Source of the DNA: Chlamydiota bacterium
GTDB taxonomy: Bacteria > Chlamydiota > Chlamydiia > Chlamydiales > Parachlamydiaceae
NCBI GenBank assembly: GCA_013286645.1
Contig: JABDFJ010000004.1
Span: 12-64,011, forward strand
DNA: 64,000 nt
Direction: 5' to 3'
Within the stretch, counting starts at the first letter, position 1; each line of letters begins with the position of its first letter. The notes beneath the pieces are model-generated. The model saw only the letters and a list, made by a program, of their open reading frames with translations. It was not told the origin of the DNA and searched no databases. The position numbers and the translations under genes are program-made. Of the stretch, positions 5,192 to 58,139 are shown piece after piece.

Positions 5192-7336
5192 ATGATTCGC
5201 ATAACGCAACCTATACTTCTACTCCTGCTACTCACGTTTATCCCACTCCATGCGGATTCATTGAGCGAGCAAGAAAATCTCATGAACGACCTCCTCATCG
5301 TCGATTATTGGAACAAAAAGATCAACGACCGCCTTCCCGTCACATATAACAACCTCCTACAAGGCGGATATTTTGCCATGCCCTCCGCCCGCATGGGCGC
5401 CGATGGCGAAATCGGCGGCGGCTATGCCTATGTCCCTCCCTACCGCCTTTATAATATCCGCTGCCAAATCCTCGACCGCCTCGAGCTCTCTGGCAACTAC
5501 CGCGTCTTCCATGGCGTTAAAGACCCCGTCCTCTCCCAACATGGCTTCGGCGACTTCTCCGATAAAGGGGCTAACCTCAAATTTTCGCTTTTTAGTCCGG
5601 AGGATAGCGAATATCAGCTCCCAGGAGTAGCCCTTGGCTGTGAAGACTTCATCGGCACGCGCGCTTTCAATGCCCAATATTTAGTCTTTACCCAAGTATT
5701 CTTAAAGCAAAATCTCGAGATTAGCTTAGGCTATGGCATCAACCGCATTCGTGGTTTCTTTGGTGGCTGCAACTGGATGCCGTTTCGCAAAAGCTGCTGG
5801 CCGCTGCTCGACTCGCTAAGCTTAACCGCCGAATATGACGCCACCCCCTATCGCAGCAAAAGGATAGAACCCCACCCCAGAGGTCACACCAAAAATTCCC
5901 CCTTTAATTTTGGCATGAAATACCGCATTTGGGACTATTTCGATCTATCTTTGAGCTATATGCGTGGGCATACTCTCTCGTTTACAGCTTCGGCCTTCTA
6001 CAACCTCGGCCACACCAAAGGCTTCCTGCCTAAAATTGATGATCCTCTGCCCTACAAGGCCCCCATCAACGTGGAACCTATCGGTATCCGTCGCCCCGAA
6101 GATGCTCTATCCACAGAGCTCCTCTTTGCCTTCCAAGAGCATGGACTGACACTACTTGACATCTACCTCTCATACAACACCTGCAACCGAAAAGTCCTAC
6201 GTCTGAATGTACTCAATGAAACCTACCGCCTAGAAAACGACCTACGCATTCGCCTCAACCACTTTTTAAGCGCCCTGATTCCAAGAGATATCGACGAAGT
6301 CATCATCGTCATCAATTCCGAAGGCTTTCCGATCCAAGAATACCGCTATCAAATGGAATATGTGCGCATGTATGCCGCCAAGGAGATAGGGCCGCACGAA
6401 CTTAAAATCCTCACGCCCCTGCATGAGGTCAGCTGGCCTAATCCCTACACCTCGGCCCACCTCTTACAACGCAAACGCCATCTCTATAACTTTGAATTAG
6501 CCCCTCGCATCCCCGCTATCTTCGGCAGCGCCAGTGGAAAATTCAAATACGCCCTAGGACTCAATGCCGACTTCAATGGCTTTCTATGGAATGACATTTA
6601 TTTTAGCGTACTTTTGGGATACAATTTCATTTCCCATCTTGGCAAAGCGCAAGGGCACGACAGATTAAATCCCTCACAGATCATTCAAGTGCATTCCGAT
6701 GTCATTCGCTATTACCATCAAACGGGTTTGCAATTGGATAATGCCTATCTGCAAAAAAACTGGAATATGGGCTGTGGCTGGTATGGGAAAATTGCTGCCG
6801 GATATTTCGAAGAAGAATATGGCGGCATTGCCAGCCAGCTTCTCTATTATCCTGTCTCTTCTCCATGGGCCATCGGCTTTTCTTATGCCGTCCTCAAAAA
6901 GCGCTCCTATAAAGGATGGGGTTTCACCAGTAAAGTCCGTAAACTTGATGGCTTAAAGCTCACTCACCGCAAATTTCTGGGGACTCAAGGCTTTTTACAC
7001 CTCTATTACGATTGGGAAGCCGCGCGCATGGATTTCAAAATCAGTGCGGGTAAGTTTTTGGCCAACGATTGGGGAGTGCGCAATGAGATCTCGCGTTATT
7101 TTCCTAGCGGCCTGCGCTTGACCTTGTGGTATACGCTGACAAATGGACATGACAAAGTCAATGGGAAGACCTATTACGACAAGGGGATAGCGTTTTCTGT
7201 GCCCTTCGATATCCTCTACACCTATAGTGAGCGCACACGTTGGACCTATGGCATGTCAGCCTGGCTGCGCGACGTCGGCGTGCAGTCCATGACCGGCCTC
7301 GACCTCTACGAACTCATCAACGACCAACGTCAATGA
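5192..7336 (+). CDS. YjbH/GfcD-family outer-membrane exopolysaccharide protein
   Basis: 714 aa with a signal peptide. LLQGGYFAMPSARMGADGEI matches the YjbH GLLQTPTARM..EGE motif. DKGANLKFSLF....PGVALGCEDFIGTRAFNAQYLVFTQ matches the DKAFDLKLRL....[25 protein letters not shown] region of E. coli YjbH as I recall it. Confidence 0.65.
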   Translation: MIRITQPILLLLLLTFIPLHADSLSEQENLMNDLLIVDYWNKKINDRLPVTYNNLLQGGYFAMPSARMGADGEIGGGYAYVPPYRLYNIRCQILDRLELSGNYRVFHGVKDPVLSQHGFGDFSDKGANLKFSLFSPEDSEYQLPGVALGCEDFIGTRAFNAQYLVFTQVFLKQNLEISLGYGINRIRGFFGGCNWMPFRKSCWPLLDSLSLTAEYDATPYRSKRIEPHPRGHTKNSPFNFGMKYRIWDYFDLSLSYMRGHTLSFTASAFYNLGHTKGFLPKIDDPLPYKAPINVEPIGIRRPEDALSTELLFAFQEHGLTLLDIYLSYNTCNRKVLRLNVLNETYRLENDLRIRLNHFLSALIPRDIDEVIIVINSEGFPIQEYRYQMEYVRMYAAKEIGPHELKILTPLHEVSWPNPYTSAHLLQRKRHLYNFELAPRIPAIFGSASGKFKYALGLNADFNGFLWNDIYFSVLLGYNFISHLGKAQGHDRLNPSQIIQVHSDVIRYYHQTGLQLDNAYLQKNWNMGCGWYGKIAAGYFEEEYGGIASQLLYYPVSSPWAIGFSYAVLKKRSYKGWGFTSKVRKLDGLKLTHRKFLGTQGFLHLYYDWEAARMDFKISAGKFLANDWGVRNEISRYFPSGLRLTLWYTLTNGHDKVNGKTYYDKGIAFSVPFDILYTYSERTRWTYGMSAWLRDVGVQSMTGLDLYELINDQRQ

Positions 7337-7358
7337 ATGAGGCTTTAGCCTCATTTTG
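7336..7358 (+). terminator. Possible intrinsic terminator after the YjbH-like gene
   Basis: aatgagg-ctttag-cctcatt hairpin followed by ttgt, directly after the stop codon. Confidence 0.4.
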
Positions 7359-7969
7359 TAGCTTAGACTTTAGTCCAATGTCATTAAGTTAAGAGATAAG
7401 TGATTTAATATTAGGGGTTCTAAAGAGCTCCAACGGAGCAAACAGGTGTAAAGCCCACAGTGTAGCGCTGCCGGCGCAAACTGTGGGGATACGAAAACAA
7501 ATATAGAGCTCCAACGGAGCGGCCAGGTGTTCTTCCATGACATGACTACAGCACACCTGGTCGCTCCGTTGGAGCTCAGATCCCCTTTTTATGAGACCCA
7601 CAGTTTGCGCCGGCAGCGCTACACTGTGGGCTTTACACCTGTTTGCTCCGTTGGAGCTCTTTAAACTTCTTCATAGTAAGTTACTTACCTCTTAACTAAA
7701 CGACATTGGACTTTAGTCTGAGCTTTAGCCTGCCACGCGCCGCCTGCGGTAGCAAGGCGAGGCGCGCTCACGTGTGGCAAAGTGCTGTTATCACAAAATG
7801 CGCTAAGGCTAAGGTTAAGGCTAGAGTGCATGGGGCTAAGGCGGCGGTCACTAGGGTGCAACAGGTGTGAGGCCACGACACCAAGCGCGTCACGCATCGC
7901 TACCGCTCGCTGCGCGTGGCATGGCTAAAGCCATGCCAAAACGAGCTCAGACTAAAGTCTAAGCTACAA
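7358..7969. repeat. Whole-spacer nested palindromic composite: outer arms, family-B element (7425..7659) and family-I element (7718..7969)
   Basis: Outer arms are gtagcttagactttagtc (7358..) and gactaaagtctaagctac (..7967). Family B has perfect 63-bp inverted arms gagctccaacggagcaaacaggtgtaaagcccacagtgtagcgctgccggcgcaaactgtggg, with a second inner arm pair carrying one mismatch. Family I (gccacgcgc...gcatcgctaccgctcgctgcgcg...gccaaaacgagctcag) recurs at 16985..17263. Confidence 0.9.
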
Positions 7970-8006
7970 TGCTGGAACTCTGCGATCTTGCTGAAAGGGT
8001 GCCTAT

Positions 8007-9932
8007 CTATTCATTGCTAGGCTTGGGAAATTGATAGCGTTGGATAAAAATATTTCCCCGATTGTTGGTATCAATCGTCATGCCTTTATAGCCTAGCCTT
8101 ATGTTGGAATCATTACTTTCATTGGTCATCGAAAATACGATGAACAGCTGGTTCTTACTATTCACCGACATCCGCAACCCTTCTAAAGTTGTACTAGCAT
8201 ATTGACTAGTTTCAATGGCAATGTCGGCGGTTTTAATACCCATAACACGCGCGTCAAAAGAGTGCGGCGTCACACGCCTTTCTTCCACAAAATCCAAACC
8301 GATTCCCGTACTGCCACCGGTAGGGTCATCCACTTCTTTATAGATATCCAACCACACATCTGTCTGCAAAGGCTTGGTAAATATATCTTCGCCGGGACGC
8401 CCGGTCCAATTTCTAAAATCGTAATAGGCCACGACATAATGGCCATCATGCGTCATGAGGGCGTACTGTCCAAACGCTTGCTGTTTACCAAAAGGGATGT
8501 TGGTGGGAGTACGATTGATCTGCACGGAGCGCGACCAACTTACCCCCTGGTCGCTGGAAGCACTCACCAGTACATAGGGAAAAATCGATGCTATTACCTC
8601 ATCATCGGGAAATGCTGCTCGATTACCCGCCCCATAAGTCAAATAGATGCGCCCTGTAAAGGGACTCACAATAGGAGAGGTGCCTTGACCTGAAGTTCCA
8701 TTCAATACCTGAACCACTCTGGGTAAAATGGTCCCAGGATCGTGCGCTAGAGCAGCGAAAATATATTGCTCTGTGGTGCCAGCCACCTCCAGCCAGGTCT
8801 TTCCATTATCCAAGGATCTGACAACAGCTTGATCATAATTCGTGTCAAATGGGGTTCCTAAATAGCTTTTGGCTCCAATCTTAGGATACTGGCGTAAAAT
8901 GGGTAATAGAAGCACATTGTGGTCAACCACCAGTGGATGCGCCGAACTAAGACTAAGTCCTCCAAAGGCCAAATAAAAGGGGTTCGTAATCTGTGGATCA
9001 AAATGTTTGGCTTTCCATACCGGATCCCCTATCAAACTATAAACTTGTTTGGGTTTAGAAAAAGTGCTGCCCCCATTTTTAGAGCGAAAATAATAGAGAT
9101 TCCCAAGCAGATTATCTGTGCTAAAATTGTCGACAGTTGAAAATAGAGGAAACATCGAACTAGCATGAATGAGCTCATTATGGGCCGGATCGATCGTCGT
9201 ATGAAACTCTCTTGGCCCTTGGCCTAGAGGTACAAAAGGACCACTGGTGATCCACCAATTCACAGGAGAGGTTAAAACAATATTAGGCTCGGCCCAACTC
9301 TTCCCATTATCGTCTGAATAGGTAAACAGAAATCCGGTCTCAGGAACTGAATTACCGTGATTCAGCACCATATCGTCAAACCCGTGGCCTGAAGCAAACA
9401 GTCTCCCCTGCTTATTATATTGCATAAATAAACCTGGACCAAGGGAAGCATTGATAATTTGCGAAATGTGGCCGCCCAAGGGTATAATCTGTTCCACCGG
9501 GGGGCCATAACTCCAAGATTTGCCTCCATCTGCCGATAAGGCAATAGTATTCGTACCTATGGTAGTCAAAAAAGTGAACGAAGCATCATACACGATATTT
9601 TGCCCAATTTGAATGGACATAATATTATCGTCTAAAGGATTGAAGATCACAGGCGAACTGGCGGTATAGGTGTTTGTCTGCAATAGAATATCCGACAGAT
9701 AACCTGGAGTTCCTCCGGCGTACACAGGCTTCTGGTAATGGTTATCCATCACCGCCCGCAAATTTGCTAGGATGGGATCAGGGTTAGCCGGACCGGGCGT
9801 GGGACTGATCCTCTGGGCGCCGCCGATGGGAATGGCGACAGGGCACGTCCCAAAAATTGTGCCGCCGCTGATGATAAGCGCACTCAATAGTGTTAAAGCC
9901 CATTTCGCTGCATATTCATACCAACAAATCAT
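8007..9932 (-). CDS. BNR/Asp-box repeat protein (sialidase-like beta-propeller), exported
   Basis: Five Asp-box-like motifs: GGKSWSYG, DDNGKSWAEP, SKNGGSTFSKP, LDNGKTWLEV, SSDQGVSWSRS. There is an N-terminal hydrophobic signal or anchor. Confidence 0.7.
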   Translation of the reverse strand: MICWYEYAAKWALTLLSALIISGGTIFGTCPVAIPIGGAQRISPTPGPANPDPILANLRAVMDNHYQKPVYAGGTPGYLSDILLQTNTYTASSPVIFNPLDDNIMSIQIGQNIVYDASFTFLTTIGTNTIALSADGGKSWSYGPPVEQIIPLGGHISQIINASLGPGLFMQYNKQGRLFASGHGFDDMVLNHGNSVPETGFLFTYSDDNGKSWAEPNIVLTSPVNWWITSGPFVPLGQGPREFHTTIDPAHNELIHASSMFPLFSTVDNFSTDNLLGNLYYFRSKNGGSTFSKPKQVYSLIGDPVWKAKHFDPQITNPFYLAFGGLSLSSAHPLVVDHNVLLLPILRQYPKIGAKSYLGTPFDTNYDQAVVRSLDNGKTWLEVAGTTEQYIFAALAHDPGTILPRVVQVLNGTSGQGTSPIVSPFTGRIYLTYGAGNRAAFPDDEVIASIFPYVLVSASSDQGVSWSRSVQINRTPTNIPFGKQQAFGQYALMTHDGHYVVAYYDFRNWTGRPGEDIFTKPLQTDVWLDIYKEVDDPTGGSTGIGLDFVEERRVTPHSFDARVMGIKTADIAIETSQYASTTLEGLRMSVNSKNQLFIVFSMTNESNDSNIRLGYKGMTIDTNNRGNIFIQRYQFPKPSNE

Positions 9933-10188
9933 AGCCGATCCTATAAAGAATATTCATCGTTCGACGGTGAACATATAAGTTGAAAGGAAACATAGGAGAT
10001 GGAGGTTGTTTTTGTCTATTTCTTATGACAATTTTCAACAGCTTATAGTAAAGATTCAGCAATTCCCCCAAATAAACCTTCTCAAGGAAAAGCAATCACT
10101 TTAGCAACATTTTTTTCGTAAAATCCCATATTTTCGGGCAAGGGCACGGTTTTTTTTAGCGGGAACTGCTGTAAGAGATTTTCATCTA

Positions 10189-10217
10189 TTGAAAATAAAA
10201 TATTTTTTTGATATCAT
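10189..10217 (+). promoter_or_regulatory. Sigma-70-like promoter candidate for the NHLP precursor gene
   Basis: TTGAAA (10189..10194), a 17-nt spacer, then TATCAT (10212..10217). A GGAAGGAGGGG Shine-Dalgarno sits just before ATG 10258. Confidence 0.3.
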
Positions 10218-10257
10218 AATGCTATAGCACTCAGCGCCTAGCGCGGAAGGAGGGGAA

Positions 10258-10638
10258 ATGGATCGTGCTGAATTAGAACAAAAAATTATTGCTAAAGCAT
10301 GGAAAGACCCCGCATTCAAAAAGAAATTGTTAGAAAAACCGAAGGAAACTATTCACCGCTTTGTCCAAGAGGTCTATCATAATCAAGATATTCTCCCCAA
10401 AGATGTCAAATGTCAGGTGCTTGAAGATAACGGTAATATGCTCACAATTGTGATCCCGCCGACCCCAGAAAATAGTGGTGAACTGTCAGAGGCTGACATC
10501 GCGCAGGTTGTAGGAGGGAAGGGTTCACCCAACCATAGTAAGAGTGCTAGAAATCCTAGAATCATTTATCATCCTAGTAACCAAGAAAACTTTGGTGCTG
10601 GTGGGAAAGGGATTATAAGATCTGCCGATGTGGGTTAA
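10258..10638 (+). CDS. NHLP (nitrile hydratase leader peptide) family RiPP precursor; leader aa 1-87 ending VVGG, 39-aa core
   Basis: RAELEQKIIAKAWKDPAFKKKLLEKPKETI....LPKDVKCQVLEDNGNMLTIVIPPTP....ELSEADIAQVVGG matches the NHLP leader consensus (ELExKIIxKAWxDxxFKxxLLxxPKxxI...LPxxVxxxVxE...xLxLVLPPxP...LSxEELExVAGG). The Shine-Dalgarno is strong. Core: KGSPNHSKSARNPRIIYHPSNQENFGAGGKGIIRSADVG (10519..10635). Confidence 0.8.
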   Translation: MDRAELEQKIIAKAWKDPAFKKKLLEKPKETIHRFVQEVYHNQDILPKDVKCQVLEDNGNMLTIVIPPTPENSGELSEADIAQVVGGKGSPNHSKSARNPRIIYHPSNQENFGAGGKGIIRSADVG

Positions 10639-10732
10639 GCGAACCTTACAAAAAATCTTGCTATGTCGCTTTGTCATCGTAGGCTCATCATCTATAGATT
10701 CTGGTATACAAGGCAGCTTCCGTTGAAACTGC

Positions 10733-17272: not shown

Positions 17273-20131
17273 TTACCAGCGGGCTTCTACCCCTGCTAAG
17301 TAATTGAAGGAAGAAATCCTTTCCCAACGTTGTCCAGAAAATTCCCCATAGAGTGTCCATCCTTCCATAATTTCTTTAGAAATGGTGACAGCTCCTTCAA
17401 AGCTATTGCGCTCTTCAGAGACCCCTTTAATCTTAAAGGGCGTGCCAAAGGCGCGAAAGCGCTCATTGAGGTGATCTTGTCTCTCGGTAAAGCGATATTG
17501 CCAGGCTAAATCTACACTTAAGGCTAAGTCATCACACAATTCTTGTGTGAGGTGCAAACCGAGGCTACCATAAGCATTGAAGAGGTGCTTCTTAAACACC
17601 ACTAAATCTAGTGAATCGGCGCCATGTTCCGAAAATTTGTCGCGCTGGGCATAGCTCAGCTCCACACCAAGAAAAGGCTGCACGAGGATACATTCCCAAC
17701 AGAAATCTTTACCTGCCTCCAGATAGAAGGTGCCTTCATAAATTTGAGGCTTGCTGTGCGCTGTGCGCCTGATGTCTCCAAAGTCGATATGACGCTTGAC
17801 TTTGTTGTCGCTGGCCCCAAAGATAGCATCGGCCATCACATAGTAGTCACAAGGACGATATAACCCGTAAAGTCCACCTAAATAGGTATGATTAGTACCA
17901 TCACCATTACCTCGATAGTGCACGTGATCGAGCGCATAGCCAGCGGCAACACCTACAGTTAAATTCGACGCAATCGCTGCTTGTCCACCGCCAGCGAGTT
18001 CAAAACCGCTAGTCGTAAAGCGTGCTTCATGTTGGTTGCCGCGCACGAAGCTGCGGCTGCCGCCCACTTCAAACCAAAAGTCTAGCTCACAATTGGCCGG
18101 ACAGCAGTCGCTTGCGCAAGGCACCGTGGTGACGAGCGCGCGTACTGGGTCGTAGAGACGTTTTAAAAACTGACGGTTGGTGATCTCGGTTGTCAGCAAT
18201 TCGCTGAGGTATTGCTGTCCTGTCATTTGGTCTAGTGCCTTACTAGCTTGATGTGGCGATAGCCCCACCAGTGTGTTCAAAATCAGCGTTTCATCCACAT
18301 TGGGATTGACGATGCTATCGAGTTGCTCGGCTACAGCTCTTTCATTCGATGTTTCGGCTGCATTGACCAGCGTGGTTTGCACGCTAAAGAAGGCATCAGT
18401 GGCATCATACGATAGGATTGCACCCACAAGCGTATTGTCGGTAATGGTTGAGCTAACGCCGGCAAATGTCCCACTTAGTCCATTGACGGCATGCAAGATG
18501 TCATATGGGGTGTTGAGCTTATATTGTCCATCTGTCGAGGCGACGACCACTTCGCCTCCTTCCAGCGAGGCACTTCCTGCGACATTGATGAGACTGCTAG
18601 CGCCTGTCTCATCGATTTGCACTTGATAGGTCGTGTTGGCATGTTGCGAGTAGTTGCCACCTACATTTAAGGTGCCAATGCTATTACCTGGAGCGATGGT
18701 ACCTCCTGTGGCTACGGTCAGGTTGTTTTGCACTATACCTATACCTTTGAGGATACCCGTATGGGCAACTGTCGTACTGCCACCACCTAGGGTGGTGTTT
18801 AACACCAGTGCACCAGCATTGACAAATGTCGTGCCGTTAAAATCGGCTACGTTTGAAGTTTCCTGACTAAAAGTGAGAGCTTTAGATCCATCTTTAAGCA
18901 CTTTACCGTTACCAGCGATAGTGCCGTTAAAGGTGCCATCGGCATTATCTAGAGTAAATTGCAACGTCGCCTGGTTATCAATCGAGCCTTGTAAGGTTTT
19001 AGTATTACCTACCAACGTACCATCCAGGATAGTAGTTCCCCCACTATATGTGGATATGCCATCGAGGATCAAAGTGCCGCTGCCTTGTTTGATTAAGCTG
19101 CCAGTACCGATAATCTCACCTTTGAATGAGCTCTCAGTAGTATTGACAACTGTCAGCGTGCCACTACCCAAATTGACTGTACCGCCATTAGTGTCGGAAT
19201 CAAGTCCCGCAATCGTATTGGAAAAGTTATTAAGATCTAAGATGCCTATCGATTCACGCACCGAGTTACTTAAAGCTACTGCTGAATGTGGCGAAAAAGC
19301 ATCGTCTGCTCCCGCTCGCAATGTGCCATTAGGAATCTGTGTTATTCCACTATAGGTCACAACATTGCTACCTGCCAATGTAAGAGCTGAAGGGGGAGGA
19401 GGGGGGCCAAAGTTGGACTCTACTCCAATTTCTAATTTTCCCGTTCCTGATATGCTACCATAATAGGTCGTGTCATTTTCCCCAACAATAACCAGTGTGC
19501 CACTTCCCAATAACACCGTGCCTGACGTGGCTGCATAATCAGCCAAGGTTAATATTTCGACAATATGGTTATTAAGATCTAAGGTGGCGCTGCTACTTAG
19601 ACCATCGCCTAAAATGACCGCTGAGTTGAACGAAAAACCGAAATCTGCTCCGGCTTGCAATGTGCCGCTACGCACTAACGTGTCGCCGCTATAGTCGGTG
19701 CCATTAAAAAAAACGCCTTCCAAAATCAATGTGCCAGTATTTTCCATAGTGAGTCCAGCCGTGCCATTTAAAGGCAGCTGGATATCTACCGTAGAATTAG
19801 CATCCCCGCCCGCTATCAATATACTAGAGCTGACATTCACTGGATTGCCCATTAAAGTATATGAGCCGCCATTGGGAGGATTGATGGTCATGCTATTGGG
19901 CTGTACGAATTCATCATTATTGGAGATAAAGCGAGTGACACCACTAGCCGGAAAAGTCATGTCGCACCCATCGTTCGGGGATTCCCCCGGAGGGATGGAA
20001 GTCCAATTGGTTGGATCGCTCCAATTTTCAGAGGTGAGGCCATTCCAGGTGATCATTTGGTCAGGTATAGCTGTTAAGGAAGCGCTCATTACAAGCAGCT
20101 GGCAGGTCGCGAGGGCAAACTTCTTATGCAT
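17273..20131 (-). CDS. Pmp-like autotransporter with autotransporter-associated beta-strand repeats
   Basis: Signal peptide MHKKFALATCQLLVMSASLTA (ATG 20131 behind GGAGAA). Multiple G(S/T)GTL.(L/V).G..TYSG.T.I..GTL repeats. The C-terminal beta-barrel domain ends LAGVEARW. Confidence 0.8.
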   Translation of the reverse strand: MHKKFALATCQLLVMSASLTAIPDQMITWNGLTSENWSDPTNWTSIPPGESPNDGCDMTFPASGVTRFISNNDEFVQPNSMTINPPNGGSYTLMGNPVNVSSSILIAGGDANSTVDIQLPLNGTAGLTMENTGTLILEGVFFNGTDYSGDTLVRSGTLQAGADFGFSFNSAVILGDGLSSSATLDLNNHIVEILTLADYAATSGTVLLGSGTLVIVGENDTTYYGSISGTGKLEIGVESNFGPPPPPSALTLAGSNVVTYSGITQIPNGTLRAGADDAFSPHSAVALSNSVRESIGILDLNNFSNTIAGLDSDTNGGTVNLGSGTLTVVNTTESSFKGEIIGTGSLIKQGSGTLILDGISTYSGGTTILDGTLVGNTKTLQGSIDNQATLQFTLDNADGTFNGTIAGNGKVLKDGSKALTFSQETSNVADFNGTTFVNAGALVLNTTLGGGSTTVAHTGILKGIGIVQNNLTVATGGTIAPGNSIGTLNVGGNYSQHANTTYQVQIDETGASSLINVAGSASLEGGEVVVASTDGQYKLNTPYDILHAVNGLSGTFAGVSSTITDNTLVGAILSYDATDAFFSVQTTLVNAAETSNERAVAEQLDSIVNPNVDETLILNTLVGLSPHQASKALDQMTGQQYLSELLTTEITNRQFLKRLYDPVRALVTTVPCASDCCPANCELDFWFEVGGSRSFVRGNQHEARFTTSGFELAGGGQAAIASNLTVGVAAGYALDHVHYRGNGDGTNHTYLGGLYGLYRPCDYYVMADAIFGASDNKVKRHIDFGDIRRTAHSKPQIYEGTFYLEAGKDFCWECILVQPFLGVELSYAQRDKFSEHGADSLDLVVFKKHLFNAYGSLGLHLTQELCDDLALSVDLAWQYRFTERQDHLNERFRAFGTPFKIKGVSEERNSFEGAVTISKEIMEGWTLYGEFSGQRWERISSFNYLAGVEARW

Positions 20132-43752: not shown

Positions 43753-43982
43753 TTTCGGGCAAGGGCACGCACGGTACATGTTCACGTTCGGTATAGCTTT
43801 CGTGCCCGTGTGCGTGCCCGTGCCCGTGCCCGAATTTATCTACCCGCTATCTTTAGAACTTTTAACCTTAATTAACGTTGCCGATCACGTTTTCATTCCC
43901 ACTCTTCTTTCGGGCACCGGCACGGGCACGCACACGGGCACGAAAGCTACACTCTCCCTGAACATGTACCACGCACGCGCCT
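43753..43982. repeat. Family-C palindromic element, copy 1 (cgtgcccgtg modules)
   Basis: gtacatgttcacg...ctttcgtgcccgtgtgcgtgcccgtgcccgtgcccgaa and its inverse ttcgggcaccggcacgggcacgcacacgggcacgaaag...gaacatgtac. The second copy at 56671..56871 shares the central spacer (cacgttttcattc.cactcttctttcggg). Confidence 0.85.
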
Positions 43983-51162: not shown

Positions 51163-51267
51163 GCTAGCAGAAAACATGCACTTCTCAGTTTCTTGCAATT
51201 TAATTCTTTTTTTTGTATAATCTCTCTTATTTTATATTACACAACACACTTTTATTGCAGGTTTATC

Positions 51268-52350
51268 ATGTTGTTACTTGTTTGTGCTTTACTTCCCATT
51301 CTTTGCTTAAGCACTATTAATTCAATTAACGCACACACAGAAACATCGCCTGCCATCATAAAAAGTGAATGGATTAGCCCTCCCCTAACGAACTTCGACT
51401 GTCATGGTTCTAGCTTACTTGAAACGACTCCTGGATCTCTCTGCGCTGTCTGGAAAGGGGGTCCAGGGAAAGGGAAATGCAACTTTGAGATGACCCAAAA
51501 TGTGGGCATCTGGTTGTCCAATTACCAACAAGGACAATGGTCAGAACCACAGCAGATCATCCAATCCCCCAACAGTGTCACCTGGACTCCTATCTTAAGT
51601 AAATTGCCCTCCGGCGAGCTTCTCCTATTTTATCGCCTTGGACCATTCCCTTGGCAATCTATTTCTCTCCTCAAACGCTCTATAGATGATGGAAAAACCT
51701 GGAGTGCTCCCGAAGTCTTAAGCTCAGGCATCATAGGACCTACCCGTTCTTCGCCGCTTATTGATGCCAATGGAATGATGATCTGCGGCTCCTCATCAGA
51801 AAACGGCTCTCCTGATGATGAGTTCAAATCTACCGCTTGTTGGATTGAAATGTCTTCGGATGGAAATCACTGGACAAAGCATGGTCCTTTGGAATTACCC
51901 GGCAAAAAATTCGGTGTGATTGAGCCCACCTTATTCCACGATGTTCAGGGAAACCTCAGGATGTTATGCCGCGATCGTGCACATCGCGTCGGGGAAGAGG
52001 GGTGGATCCAGATGGCGACCTCTTTTGATGGAGGAAAAAGCTGGACACCATTCGAAAAGACTTCGTTACCCAATCCAGATGCAGCTTTTGATAGCGTCGA
52101 TTTAGGCCAAGGCAGAGTCTTGTTAGTCTACAATCATTCCCACAAAAATCGCTTCCCATTAAGTGTAGCGCTCACTACAGATGGTGGTGACACATGGGCA
52201 CCTATTCTAACATTAGAAAATACGTCTGGTGAATTTCCTTCCCTATGCCTTGCCGCTGATGGGATGGTGCACATGTGTTATTCCTCGATCCCCGCAGGAG
52301 CCACGCAAAGACGTATCAAGCATGTCGTTCTAGATCCAGCGCGTCTGTAG
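51268..52350 (+). CDS. BNR/Asp-box repeat protein (sialidase-like), exported
   Basis: Asp-boxes DDGKTWSAP, SSDGNHWTKH, SFDGGKSWTPF and TTDGGDTWAPI. Signal peptide from ATG 51268. Confidence 0.75.
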   Translation: MLLLVCALLPILCLSTINSINAHTETSPAIIKSEWISPPLTNFDCHGSSLLETTPGSLCAVWKGGPGKGKCNFEMTQNVGIWLSNYQQGQWSEPQQIIQSPNSVTWTPILSKLPSGELLLFYRLGPFPWQSISLLKRSIDDGKTWSAPEVLSSGIIGPTRSSPLIDANGMMICGSSSENGSPDDEFKSTACWIEMSSDGNHWTKHGPLELPGKKFGVIEPTLFHDVQGNLRMLCRDRAHRVGEEGWIQMATSFDGGKSWTPFEKTSLPNPDAAFDSVDLGQGRVLLVYNHSHKNRFPLSVALTTDGGDTWAPILTLENTSGEFPSLCLAADGMVHMCYSSIPAGATQRRIKHVVLDPARL

Positions 52351-52467: not shown

Positions 52468-53820
52468 TTACACACTATTAGAAAGCTTACTTTTGAGGGC
52501 CTGCAGATCGACCTCCTCCACGTTTGTAATATGCTTACAAATCTCCATTAGCAATTGATCTTGCCTACGTCCTTTAACAAGCGCTTCAGTATAAGGCATG
52601 CAACTAAAGGTCACCATCGAATATTTCGACAAGAATTCTTCAGGGTAAGCGGCTTCTAGAGCACCCTCTAACTTGCTTTTCAGCTTAAACAGCGGATCGC
52701 TAACCCTTTCGCGTAGCTCAACAAAGTTATCAAAGGAAAGCTCAGCAATAGCATCTGTATTTGCCCTTCGCCCTTGCTCATAAGCATGGAATATCAAATC
52801 CCACTTCCCCGCATGTTCATCAATACAACGACTAAGAAAGGCACAGTTCTCAAATCCACAATTCAAACCTTGACCATAGAATGGAACAATACCATGTGCA
52901 GCATCACCTATTAACAAGATTTTGTTTTGAAAGGACCATGGATCGATTTTCACCGTCGTCAAGCGCCCCACAGGATACTCAATCATTTGTCTAAAGAAAT
53001 CTTTCATTAAAGGCAGAGCATCGCTAAACTCGCGTTGAAAGAACGCAACAGCCGCATCCTGCTGCTTGAGATGTGCAAAGCTCCTTTCTCCCTCGTGGGG
53101 TAAAAAAAGTGTGCAGGTAAAAGAACCATCAGGATTTGGCAAGGCGACCATTAAATGCCCACCTCTTGGCCACAAATGTAAAGCATTTTTTTCCAGCAGG
53201 TGACCTTGTGACGCAGGAATCGTCAACTCTTTATAATCGTAATCAAGGTGTTGTTGCGAAAAATTAGTGTAGGGCACACGCAAAAGAGAGGTGCGGATCG
53301 CCGACCACATCCCTTCTGCACCAAAAGTAATCGATAAAGGTCTTTTATGCATTAATTTTGAACGCATATTTTGGAAAAGAATTGTCTGTGCTTTAAGATC
53401 AATACCCAAGCAATTTTCGTTATAATGAAATCTGATATTAGAGTTCATTGCAGCTTCATCTAATAATACTTTATTTAGCTCCATCCGAGTGATTGAATAA
53501 ATCAAACGATCTGCACGTGGACTATATGGAATGAAATGCTGCCGTGCATCTTTATCGTGCACGAGGCGCCCTTTCATCTGCACAGCATGTGGCAAGAGCT
53601 GTTTATTCACACCTACCTCATTGAGTGCACAAAGACCGCGTGTTGATAGAGCCAAATTGATAGAGCGCCCTTCAGGCTCCATATGAGAGCGAGGATCCCC
53701 TCTCTTTTCAAACACATCGACACTGTATCCTTTTTTTGCCAAATGAAGCGCTAAAAGAGTACCCACAGGGCCTCCTCCGACAATTGTGAGCTCTTCTTTG
53801 ACACCATGATTTGTTTTCAC
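52468..53820 (-). CDS. kmo: Kynurenine 3-monooxygenase (FAD-dependent)
   Basis: [28 protein letters not shown] dinucleotide fold, [23 protein letters not shown]-like motif, ~450 aa. GTG start overlaps the kynU stop (GTGA). Confidence 0.8.
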   Translation of the reverse strand: [450 protein letters not shown]

Positions 53821-55082
53821 TTGTCAGCCTCTTGTTTTAAAAATCGGTAGAGTTCATAGACGTCACTAAAGGTGTTATATAAAGGCACAGGTGCAATACG
53901 AAGACGATTGGGAGGACGTAAATCACAGATAAAACCGGCACACTTAAGGCGTTCCAATAGATCTCCTGCTTGATGTTTGACTAAAAGCGTCAATTGGCAC
54001 CCTCTTTCTGAAGCTTGTTGGGGCGTTATCACCGATAAATTTGGATGATCCACAGCATTAACGAGGAATTCTAGATACCCTGTTAGCCGGATACTTTTTT
54101 CACGCAAACGCTTCATTCCTGCTTGTTGAAAAATATCTAATGAGGCTCTTAGGCAAGCTAAAGATAATATCGAAGGATTACTCAACTGCCACCCTTCGGC
54201 ACCTTCAATGGGCTTAAACTCGAGATTATTCATAAACCGGGTCTGTAATTCATGCCCCCACCACCCTGCAAGCCTTGGCAAATCATCCTTATGATGCTTT
54301 TGATGAACAAAACACCCTCCGATAGTGCCAGGACCTCCATTAAGATATTTATAGGAACACCAAACTGCAAAGTCCACTTGATCCTCATGCAATGTCAACT
54401 CTCGATTTCCCATTGCATGTGCAAGATCGAATCCAACGACACATCCTTGTTGATGTGCCATCTTAGTAATATGAGCAATATCAAAGGCTTGTCCACTGTA
54501 ATAATTGATCGCTTCCATCATGACAAGCGCGATGGATGCACCTTCGTTGTGCAAAATTGTATCTATCTCTTCAGCAGGTACAATCCCTTTGTTAGAAGCC
54601 GGCAGCACCACAATTGCCTTGGCTGGATCTAAACCATGGAATTTTACTACGGAACAAAGGGCATAATAATCCGATGGAAATAGATTGGCATTAATGAGAA
54701 TCTTATACCTTGTAGCTGTGGGACGATAAAAGGAGACGAGCATCAAATGCAAATTCACCGTTAAACTATTCATAAAGACAACTTCGGTGGGCTTCCCTCC
54801 TATTAAATCAGCGGCCTTATCTGTTAATAACTGCTGGTAGAGAATCCATGGAGAACCATTTTGATGGTGTCCTTCAACACCTAAATATTTCCATGTCTCC
54901 AGCTCTTTCATAACATATGGAACGACATCTTTAGGTTGGGCTCCAAGTGAATTGCCTGTGAAATAATGTGTATCTTGTCCATTACTTTGCTTTGGAATAT
55001 AAAACTTATCCCTGAAGTCTCGCAACACATCCTTTTGATCTTGCAGCAACGCATAGTCTGCATCTAAAGCATAGCTTTCCAT
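53817..55082 (-). CDS. kynU: Kynureninase (PLP-dependent)
   Basis: FYIP...YFTGNSLGAQPK..., ...FAVWCSYKYLNGGPG... (PLP-Lys region), ...RLAGWWGH.... Start moved to ATG 55082. Confidence 0.85.
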   Translation of the reverse strand: MESYALDADYALLQDQKDVLRDFRDKFYIPKQSNGQDTHYFTGNSLGAQPKDVVPYVMKELETWKYLGVEGHHQNGSPWILYQQLLTDKAADLIGGKPTEVVFMNSLTVNLHLMLVSFYRPTATRYKILINANLFPSDYYALCSVVKFHGLDPAKAIVVLPASNKGIVPAEEIDTILHNEGASIALVMMEAINYYSGQAFDIAHITKMAHQQGCVVGFDLAHAMGNRELTLHEDQVDFAVWCSYKYLNGGPGTIGGCFVHQKHHKDDLPRLAGWWGHELQTRFMNNLEFKPIEGAEGWQLSNPSILSLACLRASLDIFQQAGMKRLREKSIRLTGYLEFLVNAVDHPNLSVITPQQASERGCQLTLLVKHQAGDLLERLKCAGFICDLRPPNRLRIAPVPLYNTFSDVYELYRFLKQEADK

Positions 55083-55089
55083 CGCACAC

Positions 55090-56130
55090 CTATTTCTCTT
55101 TAATGACAGAAAATAATGGAATGTAGCTGGCTGGTAGTAAGAGCATGGGAATAAGATACAAATCCGCAAACACATCATACTTTTCAACTGTTGCCTGCAA
55201 ATAATGCACACCAGAAGAGCCTCCAGTGCCTTTTTTCCAGCCAATCAACTTTTGGACCATTAAGCTATGCCTATAGCGCCACAACAAAAAGCTCGCATTG
55301 ACATCCATGACTTCAGTGAGCAATAGATCCGACACATGTAGCAAGGGATGGTTTCGATAAAGACGGATGAACAATGCCCCCAGAAATGCCTTATAAGCAA
55401 GGCGATGTTCGCCACGCTGCAACGATGCTTCATACTCGGCCTGAACAAAATGTTGCTGAAAAATCGCTTGTAGCTCCTCGATGCGCTTAGATACCCCAGG
55501 AGTGTCATCCACACTTTTTTTAGCATCTAATATCATCTGCTCAAAAGCCTCTTGAAAGGCGAATTGAAAGTCATAATGCTCTGTTTTAAGATAAGGTAGT
55601 GTCTGCAACCATCTCTCTACATGATCAAATAATGAAAGCTCGCTTTCAACGCGACGTAAGATTTCCTGCTGATCGTGCTTTGCTCCGAATTCATAGGGGC
55701 ATTTAGCATACGGCACTCTCTCATCTCGCTTGATGCCGAATTTGGCTTCGATGAGACGAAACTGATGACTTTGAAATCCCGACATTGTCCCTAACAAACC
55801 CCGGAAATTCATATATTGCAAGGGAGTTAACGTCTCTAAAACATCTAATTGTTGGATCAATAAGCCAAAAATTTTATTGATACGTTGCAAACGCATCAAG
55901 ATAAGTCCCATATCGCGTTCAGAGGCTTGTTCTTTAAAAATTCCAAAGATACTGTCGAGATCTGCAATGATTTGCTTAAACCACAATTCATACACTTGAT
56001 GCATGATAATAAAAAATAACTCCTCATGCACCGGCTGCCCAGCCTCCCCACTCAAAAGCTTCTGGGCGGAAAGCACTTTGTCCAGCTGCAAATAATCAGA
56101 ATAATGTTCTTTAGGAGGTGTTTTTTTCAT
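55090..56130 (-). CDS. kynA: Tryptophan 2,3-dioxygenase
   Basis: YSDYLQLDKVLSAQKLLS....VHEELFFIIMHQVYELWFKQI is the TDO N-terminal signature. ATG 56130 is preferred over TTG 56145. It overlaps the upstream gene's stop by about 20 nt. Confidence 0.85.
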   Translation of the reverse strand: MKKTPPKEHYSDYLQLDKVLSAQKLLSGEAGQPVHEELFFIIMHQVYELWFKQIIADLDSIFGIFKEQASERDMGLILMRLQRINKIFGLLIQQLDVLETLTPLQYMNFRGLLGTMSGFQSHQFRLIEAKFGIKRDERVPYAKCPYEFGAKHDQQEILRRVESELSLFDHVERWLQTLPYLKTEHYDFQFAFQEAFEQMILDAKKSVDDTPGVSKRIEELQAIFQQHFVQAEYEASLQRGEHRLAYKAFLGALFIRLYRNHPLLHVSDLLLTEVMDVNASFLLWRYRHSLMVQKLIGWKKGTGGSSGVHYLQATVEKYDVFADLYLIPMLLLPASYIPLFSVIKEK

Positions 56131-56656
56131 TTTGCCCCTTTTCAAGTGGCGGTTGCATCACATAACCACATCTCTTGCACCGCCTTTTTTCTTCATCATC
56201 ATAAAAGCGTTTGAAAATTTCGGGCAATTGATGTTCGACATCATTAACAGCTACAAATTCTTCGTACAGCTTATGATGACACTTTTCACAATACCACTGA
56301 AATCCATCGAGTTCAGAACCATGCCTTTTATATTCGATCACCACCCCAATAGTTCCCGCTGGCCGCTGTGGCGAATGAGGTGTCTTGGATGCAATGAGAA
56401 ATATCTCCCCCTCACGGATAGGCACATCGAGGCTTTGCCCATTTTCAATAATTTTTAAGACGATATCTCCCTTAACTTGATAAAAAAATTCTTCCCCTTC
56501 ATTGATGTGATAATCTTTGCGCGCATTCGGACCTTCCACGACCATCACAATAGTATCAGTATCTTCCCAAATGACCTTGTTACCTACAGGCGGCTTAAAA
56601 TTTTCATGATTTTCTTCGATCCATTTCTTCAGATCTATGGCGGATTTTGGAAACAT
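56111..56656 (-). CDS. 3-hydroxyanthranilate 3,4-dioxygenase (cupin) with a C-terminal rubredoxin-like site
   Basis: FKPPVGNKVIWEDTDTIVMVVEGPNARKDYHINEGEEFFYQVKGD...EGEIFLIASKTPHSPQR...WYCEKC...CKRCG aligns along its whole length with bacterial HAO (NbaC) as I recall it. Confidence 0.85.
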   Translation of the reverse strand: MFPKSAIDLKKWIEENHENFKPPVGNKVIWEDTDTIVMVVEGPNARKDYHINEGEEFFYQVKGDIVLKIIENGQSLDVPIREGEIFLIASKTPHSPQRPAGTIGVVIEYKRHGSELDGFQWYCEKCHHKLYEEFVAVNDVEHQLPEIFKRFYDDEEKRRCKRCGYVMQPPLEKGQNEKNTS

Positions 56657-56670
56657 TGATTATTCCTAAA

Positions 56671-57186
56671 GTACATGTTCACAGTAGCGATCTAAGAGAA
56701 TAAATTTCGTGCCCGTGTGCGTGCCCGTGTGCGTGCCCGAATTTATCTACACGTTATCTTAAGGACTTTAAACCTTTGAACCTTATCTATCACGTTTTCA
56801 TTCACACTCTTCTTTCGGGCACCGGCACGGGCACGCACATGGGCACGAAAGCCACACACCTCGTGAACATGCAATGGTGTCAAATTAAAAAAATATTTAC
56901 AACTAAAAATTGAGGCTAGTCTAGCTTCAATGAGGCATGGGCGCACTGAGACGATTGCAAAAGTCAATTGCTGAGCAAAAAAAGAACAGGATGGGCAGGA
57001 TAGGCAGGATGTACCTTGCAGCAAGATCAACGATGGAAACGATGTAACGATATAACGATTTTTTTTGAAATCTTAATAGGATCGCTAAAATACTCATTGC
57101 AATTCAAAGCTTGATGAATATGACTAGTGTTTTTGCCACACTAATTGGACTTCTCCGTGTACTCTGTGCCTTTGTGTTTCAAAAAT
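56671..57186. repeat. Divergent-promoter spacer filled with repeats: family C copy 2 (56671..56871), family F copy 3 (56985..57059), family D half-copy (57148..57186)
   Basis: Direct sequence similarity to 43753..43982, 2668..2743 and 34611..34754 respectively. Confidence 0.85.
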
Positions 57187-57272
57187 CACCTTGATAAATA
57201 TCGTTACTTGAAAAACTATCACAAAACTGCTTAAGCTGCTAATTTCATGCTTTACAACTGAAAGGCACAGTC

Positions 57273-58139
57273 ATGTCTGTTAGAAATACAAAAACACTAC
57301 ACAAAGAACTCCCGCGAATCGTCATCAAAGAGATGGTAATACGCGCCTTGGAAGAAGATCTGGCCGCTGGGGATGTCACCACTGAAGCTTGCATCGATGA
57401 CAATTCAAACTCTGTAGCAAATGCCGTAGCACGCCATGATTTAATAGCGTGTGGTTCAAACGTGGCGGCGTGTGTGTTTGAAATGGTCGACCCCGACCTT
57501 AAATTCGAAGAGCTTATCGCAGATGGCACTTCAGTACAGAAAGGACAAATCCTGTGGCGTGTCACAGGAAAAACACGTTCCATACTTATGGGAGAGAGGG
57601 TAGCTCTAAATTTCGTCCAACGTTTATCGGGCATTGCTACTATGACACATACTTATGTCAAAGCCATTCCCCCAGGTTTCCACACCCGTATTAGCGATAC
57701 GCGCAAAACAACCCCTGGTTTACGTGCTTTTGAACGCTATGCGGTTAGGATGGGCGGCGGCTTTAACCACCGCGACAACTTGAGCAGTGCTGTTTTGATA
57801 AAAGACAACCATATCGCTGCTTGTGGTGGTGTAACAACAGCAATTAAAAGAGCAAAGACGTATGCCTCACATACATGTCGCATCGAATGCGAAGTCGAGA
57901 CGCTAGAACAATTGAAAGAAGCCTTGGATGTTGGAGTTGATGTTGTCTTATTGGATAATATGCCCCCACTATCTATTGTTGAGGCTGTAAAATTAGCCAA
58001 AGGCAGAGCCATCATAGAAGCTTCTGGCGGCATAACTTTGACGCACATTGAAGAACTCGCACGTGCTGGTGTCGATGTGATTTCAACTGGGGCTATCACA
58101 CATTCGGCACCTGCGGCTGATATAGGTCTTGATATGTAA
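57273..58139 (+). CDS. nadC: Nicotinate-nucleotide pyrophosphorylase (quinolinate phosphoribosyltransferase)
   Basis: DVTTEA..., ERVALNFVQRLSGIAT, DTRKTTPGLR, HRDNLSSAVLIKDNHI and EASGGIT motifs. Confidence 0.9.
   Translation: MSVRNTKTLHKELPRIVIKEMVIRALEEDLAAGDVTTEACIDDNSNSVANAVARHDLIACGSNVAACVFEMVDPDLKFEELIADGTSVQKGQILWRVTGKTRSILMGERVALNFVQRLSGIATMTHTYVKAIPPGFHTRISDTRKTTPGLRAFERYAVRMGGGFNHRDNLSSAVLIKDNHIAACGGVTTAIKRAKTYASHTCRIECEVETLEQLKEALDVGVDVVLLDNMPPLSIVEAVKLAKGRAIIEASGGITLTHIEELARAGVDVISTGAITHSAPAADIGLDM

What the first reader, a model, noticed from the sequence alone, without database searches (positions are those of the whole stretch)
52468..58139. Eukaryote-type aerobic kynurenine pathway (Trp to quinolinate) operon divergent from nadC
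Four tightly packed minus-strand genes encode, in order, 3-hydroxyanthranilate 3,4-dioxygenase, tryptophan 2,3-dioxygenase, kynureninase and kynurenine 3-monooxygenase. The junctions overlap by 20 nt (HAO/TDO) and 4 nt (kynureninase/KMO), and the TDO/kynureninase junction is a 7-nt gap. Quinolinate phosphoribosyltransferase (nadC) is transcribed divergently. This is the de novo NAD route from tryptophan, known from eukaryotes and only a minority of bacteria. A kynurenine formamidase gene is not visible in the window. If the organism is Chlamydia-like, this matters. Pathogenic chlamydiae are tryptophan-limited by host IDO, and some relatives import NAD through nucleotide transporters. A lineage that instead burns tryptophan, or scavenges host kynurenines, for NAD would be metabolically distinctive.
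Basis: partly seen in the sequence, partly recalled or inferred. Interest (0 to 1): 0.6.

Follow-up and report, generated by a model that had tools for sequence, protein, structure and literature searches.

The report
Chlamydial tryptophan-to-NAD operon lacking formamidase
An uncultured Chlamydia-like bacterium carries an intact gene set for making the NAD precursor quinolinate from tryptophan, a known bacterial pathway that is rare in this phylum, and here it has lost its second-step enzyme through a clean deletion that left a visible scar.

Summary
Four packed minus-strand genes encode 3-hydroxyanthranilate dioxygenase, long-form tryptophan 2,3-dioxygenase (TDO), kynureninase and kynurenine 3-monooxygenase.

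- The genome is chlamydial: 2.39 Mb, 79% complete, three NTT transporters.
- It has nadD, nadE and pncB, but no nadA, nadB, ACMSD or trpB were found.
- It has four Trp/Tyr permeases. The operon is therefore the only quinolinate source found, fed by imported tryptophan.

"Eukaryote-type" holds only for enzyme subtype. The nearest relatives are bacterial, and the sampled neighbours are mostly Bacteroidota.

New here:
- All seven related operons found carry a cyclase-type formamidase gene (kynB) between TDO and kynU.
- The window lost kynB by an in-frame deletion of about 0.8 kb. The last codons of kynB now form the TDO tail.
- An independent assembly shows the same junction.
- The remaining genes keep their catalytic residues and show no rate acceleration.
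- The operon occurs in 2 of 73 species genomes of the family.
- I found no paper reporting this pathway in chlamydiae. The scan has noted kynurenine operons in at least 14 other genomes.

Verdict: a new member of a known kind, of moderate interest.

The parts
56111..56656 (-). 3-hydroxyanthranilate 3,4-dioxygenase (HAO/NbaC), 181 aa, first gene of the operon
   Evidence: PF06052 at 200.8 bits. NF009763 at 246 bits (cut-off 220) and TIGR03037 at 236 bits (cut-off 146). Matches PDB 1yfu at E=6e-45. The alignment keeps the DYH, EEFFYQ and HSPQRP metal-site motifs and the four Cys of the rubredoxin-like site.
55090..56130 (-). Long-form tryptophan 2,3-dioxygenase, 346 aa. Its last 8 codons (LFSVIKEK*) derive from the 3' end of a deleted kynB gene.
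   Evidence: PF03301 at 295 bits. Human TDO E=1e-72, against Xanthomonas TDO 7e-33. Residues invariant across 25 homologues include H44, R110, H288 and the GTGG motif (G301-G304); assigning H44 and H288 as the distal and proximal haem histidines is from my recollection of the TDO structures. Tail homology to kynB is shown.
55083..55118 (-). Deletion scar: kynB 3' remnant, stop codon and the 7-nt spacer before kynU
   Evidence: Window sequence CCATTATTTTCTGTCATTAAAGAGAAATAG followed by GGTGTGCGATG aligns with the L013 kynB 3' end CCCTTATTATTTTCAGTGATAACATAA, the spacer and the kynU start. The kynB tail consensus in 7 relatives is SRPLLF(S/P)(V/I).
53817..55082 (-). Kynureninase (KynU), 421 aa, of the human-like (3-hydroxykynurenine-preferring) type
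   Evidence: TIGR01814 at 420 bits (cut-off 246). The best PDB match, 7s3v, scores 403 bits; human kynureninase 2hzp and 3e9k score about 395 bits; P. fluorescens 1qz9 scores 153 bits. The SYKYLN PLP-lysine motif, a His aligned to human H102 and the SNP motif (human N333) are present (residue roles are from my recollection of the literature).
52468..53820 (-). Kynurenine 3-monooxygenase (KMO), 450 aa, GTG start overlapping the kynU stop by 4 nt
   Evidence: P. fluorescens KMO E=2.4e-86 over residues 9-446. 6lkd KMO 1e-80, 5x68 KMO 9e-76, 4j33 KMO 1e-55. The next family (TetX) reaches only 1e-13. GGGPVG and GDAAH FAD motifs are present. No NCBIfam KMO model matched; VioC scores 184 bits against a cut-off of 760.
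57273..58139 (+). Quinolinate phosphoribosyltransferase (NadC), 288 aa, divergent from the operon
   Evidence: TIGR00078 at 322 bits (cut-off 198). The same divergent nadC sits next to HAO in L007, L009, L010 and L011.
56657..57272 (.). 616-bp divergent promoter spacer, enlarged by dispersed hairpin repeats (MITE-like)
   Evidence: The spacer is 85-190 bp in L007, L010 and L011. Positions 56657-56890 have 84-96% identical copies on at least 6 other contigs. Hairpin arms lie at 56705-56741 and 56814-56850. No Rfam family matched.

Best explanation
The operon converts imported tryptophan to quinolinate for de novo NAD synthesis. TDO opens the indole ring to N-formylkynurenine. KMO hydroxylates kynurenine. 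The human-type kynureninase cleaves 3-hydroxykynurenine to 3-hydroxyanthranilate. HAO opens that ring to 2-amino-3-carboxymuconate semialdehyde. With no ACMSD present, this product cyclises spontaneously to quinolinate. The divergently transcribed NadC makes nicotinate mononucleotide, and NadD and glutamine-dependent NadE, encoded elsewhere, finish NAD. The five-gene operon plus nadC was acquired as a unit by an ancestor of a small chlamydial clade from a bacterial donor. The donor is unresolved, and the neighbours available in my TDO-selected sample are mostly Bacteroidota. In this lineage the dedicated formamidase KynB was removed by an in-frame deletion. The deformylation step must therefore be carried out by a non-dedicated hydrolase of the bacterium or the host. 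Shown here: gene identities, genomic context, the deletion, and conservation of the remaining genes. Inferred: flux to NAD, the source of the formamidase activity, and the donor.
For: TDO residues including H44, R110 and H288 are invariant. In the own genome, nadD, nadE and pncB are present. nadA and nadB are absent. No ACMSD was found; the only Amidohydro_2 protein matches gamma-resorcylate decarboxylase at 282 bits against 97 bits for ACMSD. trpB was not found, and four Trp/Tyr permeases are present. The layout nadC<->HAO-TDO-kynB-kynU-KMO is conserved in L009, L010 and L011; L007, L013, L014 and L015 carry the parts of it that their contigs cover, kynB included. The deletion scar is shown. 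The same junction appears in an independent assembly. Against L013, dN/dS is 0.06-0.11 for HAO, kynU and KMO (dS is saturated, and the TDO estimate failed). Terminal branches of the window and L013 are equal in all four trees: TDO 0.30/0.36, kynU 0.18/0.19, KMO 0.22/0.21, HAO 0.063/0.056. This gives no sign of relaxed constraint. Operon genes form one clade with largely matching internal topology (the HAO tree differs in places). Some sampled Bacteroidota and allied clusters share the kynB-kynU-KMO order.
Against: No formamidase of either known type was found. A preprint reports that at physiological pH N-formylkynurenine mostly deaminates rather than hydrolysing spontaneously (10.1101/2024.11.15.623703). 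Flux from tryptophan therefore needs some hydrolase that I could not identify. The assembly is only 79% complete. PncB salvage, a second nadC and three NTT transporters could make the operon dispensable. There are no expression or biochemical data.
Confidence: 0.62

Rival explanations
1. Host-metabolite scavenging. After losing KynB, the bacterium enters the pathway at host-made kynurenine or 3-hydroxykynurenine, or lets host formamidase process its N-formylkynurenine. TDO is then secondary or serves another role, such as lowering host tryptophan.
For: KynB is deleted and no replacement was found. Some Chlamydiaceae are already known to intercept host kynurenine with KynU (PMC3937554). Amoebozoa possess kynurenine-pathway genes (PMC4217691).
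Against: TDO is intact, keeps its invariant catalytic residues and evolves no faster than in the kynB-bearing sister L013. The deletion kept the TDO frame and its tight coupling to kynU. No kynurenine transporter was identified.
Confidence: 0.17
2. A pathway in early decay. The kynB deletion disabled de novo synthesis, and NAD now comes from nicotinate salvage (PncB), host quinolinate (second NadC) or imported NAD (NTTs). The remaining genes are not yet degraded.
For: PncB, a second nadC and three NTTs are present. 71 of 73 species in the family live without the operon. MITE-like repeats have invaded the promoter spacer.
Against: There are no frameshifts or stops in 5.7 kb. Catalytic residues are kept. 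Branch lengths are symmetric with the sister lineage. dN/dS is 0.06-0.11 for the three genes with an estimate.
Confidence: 0.1
3. A formamidase gene exists in the unassembled 21% of the genome, so the pathway is complete and ordinary.
For: Completeness is 79% across 118 contigs.
Against: The operon copy was demonstrably deleted. A relocated copy would need a prior duplication. A tblastn search with the G034 KynB and the PF04199 search both find nothing.
Confidence: 0.08
4. The operon serves tryptophan catabolism for carbon or energy rather than NAD.
For: A chlamydial genome of another family (G042) has HAO and ACMSD flanked by aldehyde dehydrogenase, RidA-like and short-chain dehydrogenase genes, plus kynB-kynU-KMO, in a catabolic layout.
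Against: The own genome has no ACMSD. nadC is the conserved divergent partner. nadA and nadB are absent here, while G042 has nadA.
Confidence: 0.03

Closest known systems
Bacterial aerobic kynurenine pathway to quinolinate (TDO/KynA, KynB, KMO, KynU, HAO/NbaC plus NadC), described in Cytophaga, Flavobacteriales, Xanthomonadales and others (Kurnasov et al. 2003 and Lima et al. 2009 from my own knowledge; survey in PMC4217691)
   Same: The same five reactions and enzyme families. The long-form TDO and human-like KynU are as in Bacteroidota. The kynB-kynU-KMO gene order is shared with some sampled Bacteroidota and allied clusters. The link to nadC is the same.
   Different: The host phylum differs: Chlamydiota is not among the bacterial groups listed in PMC4217691. 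The gene order is HAO-TDO-kynB-kynU-KMO without ACMSD. In this genome kynB is deleted.
Chlamydia caviae/felis/pecorum Trp-kynurenine-Trp recycling operon (trpR-trpBDC-trpEbEa-kynU-prsA; PMC3937554)
   Same: A chlamydial kynureninase that acts on a kynurenine-pathway intermediate derived from host tryptophan.
   Different: That system turns kynurenine into anthranilate to rebuild tryptophan. Here no trpB was found, and KMO and HAO send the flux to quinolinate. The two kynU genes lie in different clades.
Eukaryotic (animal and fungal) kynurenine pathway
   Same: TDO and kynureninase are of the same subtype as the human enzymes (248 and about 395 bits). The chemistry is the same.
   Different: The formamidase in the chlamydial relatives is the bacterial cyclase type (PF04199), not the Afmid/Bna7 alpha/beta-hydrolase type. 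The genes form an operon. The nearest sequence relatives are bacterial.
NAD import by Protochlamydia amoebophila NTT4 (NAD+/ADP antiporter; cited in PMC3937554)
   Same: An alternative way for environmental chlamydiae to obtain NAD. This genome also has three NTT paralogues.
   Different: I could not assign any of the three paralogues to NTT4. This lineage additionally encodes de novo and salvage synthesis.

Membership tests
Bacterial kynurenine pathway to quinolinate / de novo NAD | Haem-dependent tryptophan 2,3-dioxygenase | tested here: met
   PF03301 at 295 bits. Human TDO at 1e-72. H44, R110 and H288 are invariant. The score is below the cut-off of TIGR03036, which models the short bacterial form.
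Bacterial kynurenine pathway to quinolinate / de novo NAD | Kynurenine formamidase (KynB cyclase type or Afmid type) | tested here: not met
   There is no PF04199 hit in the genome, and tblastn with the G034 KynB gives E>0.3. A deletion scar marks the operon position. The alpha/beta hydrolases found do not match any entry named kynurenine formamidase. The genome is 79% complete.
Bacterial kynurenine pathway to quinolinate / de novo NAD | Kynurenine 3-monooxygenase | tested here: met
   Full-length match to solved KMOs, E=2e-86 to 1e-55. The next family reaches 1e-13.
Bacterial kynurenine pathway to quinolinate / de novo NAD | Kynureninase | tested here: met
   TIGR01814 at 420 bits (cut-off 246). 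Human kynureninase entries 2hzp and 3e9k score about 395 bits.
Bacterial kynurenine pathway to quinolinate / de novo NAD | 3-hydroxyanthranilate 3,4-dioxygenase | tested here: met
   NF009763 and TIGR03037 score above their cut-offs. The metal ligands are conserved.
Bacterial kynurenine pathway to quinolinate / de novo NAD | NadC, NadD and NadE present, and no competing ACMSD | tested here: met
   nadC (TIGR00078), nadD (TIGR00482) and nadE (PF02540, 551 aa) are present. The only Amidohydro_2 protein is of the gamma-resorcylate decarboxylase type.
Bacterial kynurenine pathway to quinolinate / de novo NAD | Demonstrated flux from tryptophan to NAD | not testable with these tools
   This needs isotope tracing or enzyme assays.
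Tryptophan catabolic (2-aminomuconate) pathway | ACMSD plus aminomuconate-semialdehyde dehydrogenase next to HAO | tested here: not met
   These genes are absent from the window and the genome. HAO and ACMSD with an adjacent aldehyde dehydrogenase (Aldedh family) are present in G042 of another family.
Chlamydiaceae kynurenine-to-tryptophan recycling operon | kynU linked to trp biosynthesis genes; same kynU lineage | tested here: not met
   No trpB was found in the genome. The operon kynU clade is separate from the 13-row clade that holds the 1.1-1.2 Mb genomes I take to be Chlamydiaceae.
Direct eukaryote-to-chlamydia gene transfer | Chlamydial genes nested within eukaryotic sequences | tested here: inconclusive
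   The TDO tree places human TDO away from the chlamydial clade, and bacterial hits outscore it. Only one eukaryotic sequence was available, so sampling is thin.

The most novel reading that the evidence does not exclude
The kynB loss may be adaptive. The symbiont would run a split pathway in which N-formylkynurenine made by bacterial TDO is deformylated by a host hydrolase, or host kynurenine is imported. NAD synthesis would then depend on metabolic complementation with the host. Alternatively, the reactive N-formylkynurenine itself is released into the inclusion or host as a thiol-scavenging or signalling molecule.
Probability: 0.15. Interest if true: 0.7.

Novelty: new member of a known kind. 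Interest (0 to 1): 0.4.

Why it matters
Chlamydiae are usually described as tryptophan-limited organisms that import cofactors from the host. This lineage appears to spend imported tryptophan to make its own NAD. That widens the known metabolic range of the phylum and shows that NAD autonomy was gained by operon transfer in a few environmental lineages. The precisely mapped formamidase deletion offers a natural test of whether the second pathway step needs a dedicated enzyme inside a host cell. The practical consequence is modest. The pathway itself is well known in other bacteria, and the scan has already noted it in many other genomes.

Tried and rejected
I used an independent Logan assembly instead.
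2. Search for a replacement formamidase. PF04199, tblastn with the G034 KynB, and PF07859 followed by PDB searches of two alpha/beta hydrolases found only generic esterase-like proteins.
3. An ACMSD candidate on C34 was rejected. It is of the gamma-resorcylate decarboxylase type.
4. An NAD or other riboswitch in the long spacer. No Rfam hit reached threshold.
5. Internal promoters and terminators. Consensus hits were not clearly above the shuffled expectation.
6. Naming the organism or its relatives. Cluster look-ups carried no names.
7. Assigning an NTT4-type NAD transporter. NCBIfam has only the superfamily model.
8. Donor inference. The position of the TDO clade among long-form TDOs is unresolved. 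The kynB and kynU trees place the chlamydial clade nearest Bacteroidota sequences, but support is weak and the sample was chosen through TDO.
9. Literature. Six full-text searches and a check of the chlamydial pangenome paper (PMC8242063) found no report of this pathway in chlamydiae.
Full report
**Observation**

The window holds four back-to-back minus-strand ORFs and a divergent plus-strand ORF at the coordinates given.

- TDO and kynU are 7 nt apart.
- kynU and KMO overlap by 4 nt.
- A Logan assembly of run SRR8423021 (L129) is 100% identical over 4609 bp. Its independent gene calls give the same starts and junctions.

**Identity of the products**

- **HAO** passes two NCBIfam equivalogs, and its metal and rubredoxin-like sites align with PDB 1yfu.
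- **Kynureninase** passes TIGR01814. Human kynureninase entries 2hzp and 3e9k score about 395 bits (the best hit, 7s3v, scores 403), against 153 bits for the Pseudomonas enzyme. It keeps the PLP-lysine motif. It also keeps a His and an Asn at the positions that, from my recollection of the literature, favour 3-hydroxykynurenine.
- **KMO** has no NCBIfam model of its own. It matches solved KMO structures over its full length at E=2e-86 for the P. fluorescens enzyme, with further KMO entries down to 1e-55. The next family scores 1e-13.
- **TDO** is the long form. It scores 295 bits on Pfam and 248 bits against human TDO, but 118 bits against Xanthomonas TDO. Y10, Y13, H44, R110, H288 and the GTGG motif (G301-G304) are invariant among 25 homologues.
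- **NadC** passes TIGR00078.

**Genome context**

The window lies on contig 4 of a 2.39-Mb assembly in 118 contigs, 79% complete. Three NTT-type nucleotide transporters are present, which fits a Chlamydia-like organism.

| Function | Result |
|---|---|
| nadD | present, above cut-off |
| nadE (551 aa, glutamine-dependent) | present |
| pncB | present, above cut-off |
| second nadC (contig 29) | present, above cut-off |
| nadA | no hit |
| nadB | only an SdhA-like protein, below cut-off |
| trpB | no hit |
| Trp/Tyr permeases | four |
| ACMSD | none; the only Amidohydro_2 protein is of the gamma-resorcylate decarboxylase type |

The operon is therefore the only quinolinate source found. Its HAO product has no competing decarboxylase. 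Its substrate tryptophan has to be imported.

**Comparative picture**

Full-length HAO occurs in 2 of 73 species genomes of the same family, G000 and G034. In a 400-genome sample of the phylum, only the window's genome carried the long TDO, and four others carried a short kynA type.

Protein and contig look-ups found six further environmental lineages (L009, L010, L011/L012, L013, L014, L015). Flanking housekeeping genes of L010 and L011 are 62-80% identical to this genome, so those two at least are chlamydial.

Wherever the contig is long enough, every one of these loci and G034 has the order nadC<->HAO-TDO-kynB-kynU-KMO. kynB is a 262-277-aa cyclase-family (PF04199) protein.

A chlamydial genome of another family (G042) has a different layout, with HAO and ACMSD flanked by aldehyde dehydrogenase, RidA-like and short-chain dehydrogenase genes. 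It also has nadA.

**The missing formamidase**

The window is the only member of the clade without kynB.

- Its TDO ends ...SYIPLFSVIKEK*.
- The closest relative's TDO (L013) runs on for about 16 more residues.
- The L013 KynB ends ...SRPLLFSVIT*.
- The DNA from the window's CCATTATTTTCTGTCATT through the stop codon, the 7-nt spacer and the kynU start aligns with the kynB 3' end, spacer and kynU start of L013.

The gene was therefore removed by an in-frame deletion of about 0.8 kb between a Pro codon of the TDO tail and the conserved RPLLF motif of KynB. The TDO frame and its coupling to kynU were kept.

No cyclase-type or Afmid-type formamidase was found elsewhere in the assembly.

**Is the rest still in use?**

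- All four ORFs are intact.
- dN/dS against L013 is 0.06-0.11 for HAO, kynU and KMO. dS is saturated, and the TDO estimate failed.
- Terminal branches of the window and the kynB-bearing L013 are equal in all four gene trees. I see no relaxation of constraint.
- A preprint reports that N-formylkynurenine at physiological pH mostly deaminates to a thiol-reactive product, while generic hydrolases convert it to kynurenine (10.1101/2024.11.15.623703). Some bacterial or host hydrolase is therefore needed, and I could not identify it.

**Origin**

- Outside the chlamydial clade, the best TDO hits are bacterial at 42-45% identity: Bacteroidota, Bdellovibrionota, Ignavibacteria, Acidimicrobiia and others.
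- In the TDO tree the eight chlamydial rows form one clade (support 100, stem length 1.28). Its position among long-form TDOs is unresolved, and human TDO falls elsewhere.
- kynU and kynB place the clade nearest Bacteroidota sequences, with weak support. Some sampled Bacteroidota and allied clusters share the kynB-kynU-KMO order but add ACMSD.
- The operon kynU is distinct from a 13-row chlamydial kynU group. That group includes the 1.1-1.2 Mb genomes, which I take to be the Chlamydiaceae with the tryptophan-recycling operon (PMC3937554).
- GC content matches the genome, so the transfer is not recent.

**Literature**

[quoted passage not shown] PMC4217691 lists the bacterial groups with the pathway, and Chlamydiae is not among them. 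The chlamydial pangenome paper PMC8242063 does not mention kynurenine, quinolinate, nicotinate or tryptophan. Further searches found no report. The scan's own index holds notes on kynurenine operons in at least 14 other genomes, some also lacking a formamidase.

**Verdict**

The finding is real and largely correctly read. It is a known pathway in an unusual phylum. Its distinguishing features are a clean, mapped loss of the formamidase gene and a promoter spacer invaded by MITE-like repeats.

Noticed in passing
window 56657-57272: The divergent spacer between HAO and nadC is 616 bp, against 85-190 bp in relatives. It is largely made of dispersed hairpin repeats. A roughly 220-bp element (arms 56705-56741 and 56814-56850) has 84-96% identical copies on at least 6 other contigs and at window 43809-43977. 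Further repeat pieces lie at 56976-57065 and 57149-57189.
   Followed up: partly
G000:C29:14078-15025 (outside the window); G034:C42:107659-108474: There is a second nadC, above the TIGR00078 cut-off and 32% identical to the operon copy, beside a Cpn60 paralogue. Among 61 Chlamydiales genomes (G000 included), 15 carry nadC above the cut-off. Only 3 have nadA and 2 have the full NAD-type kynurenine operon. Most of these nadC genes are therefore 'orphans', possibly used to salvage host quinolinate.
   Followed up: partly
L113-L125 (loci): Kynureninase homologues occur in 19 of 400 sampled Chlamydiota genomes across several families. This is far wider than the three Chlamydia species named in the 2014 literature. 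They fall into three separate lineages.
   Followed up: partly
L008 (G042:C12) 6489-10731 and 17309-19938; L111: A chlamydial genome of another family carries a catabolic cluster (SDR, aldehyde dehydrogenase, RidA, HAO, ACMSD) plus kynB-kynU-KMO. It also has nadA. This points to tryptophan degradation in a chlamydia rather than NAD synthesis.
   Followed up: partly
G000:C34:24359-25333 (outside the window): An Amidohydro_2 protein of 320 aa whose best match is gamma-resorcylate or 2,3-dihydroxybenzoate decarboxylase (282 bits). This is an unexpected aromatic-acid decarboxylase for a chlamydial genome.
   Followed up: no
window 51193-52350 (+): A BNR_2 (sialidase-like beta-propeller) protein of 385 aa with an N-terminal hydrophobic segment lies convergent with KMO. 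It has no NCBIfam match.
   Followed up: no
G021:C8:89-889: A same-family genome has an operon-type nadC (310 bits) right at a contig end, but no HAO was detected. An unassembled kynurenine operon may lie beyond the contig edge.
   Followed up: no
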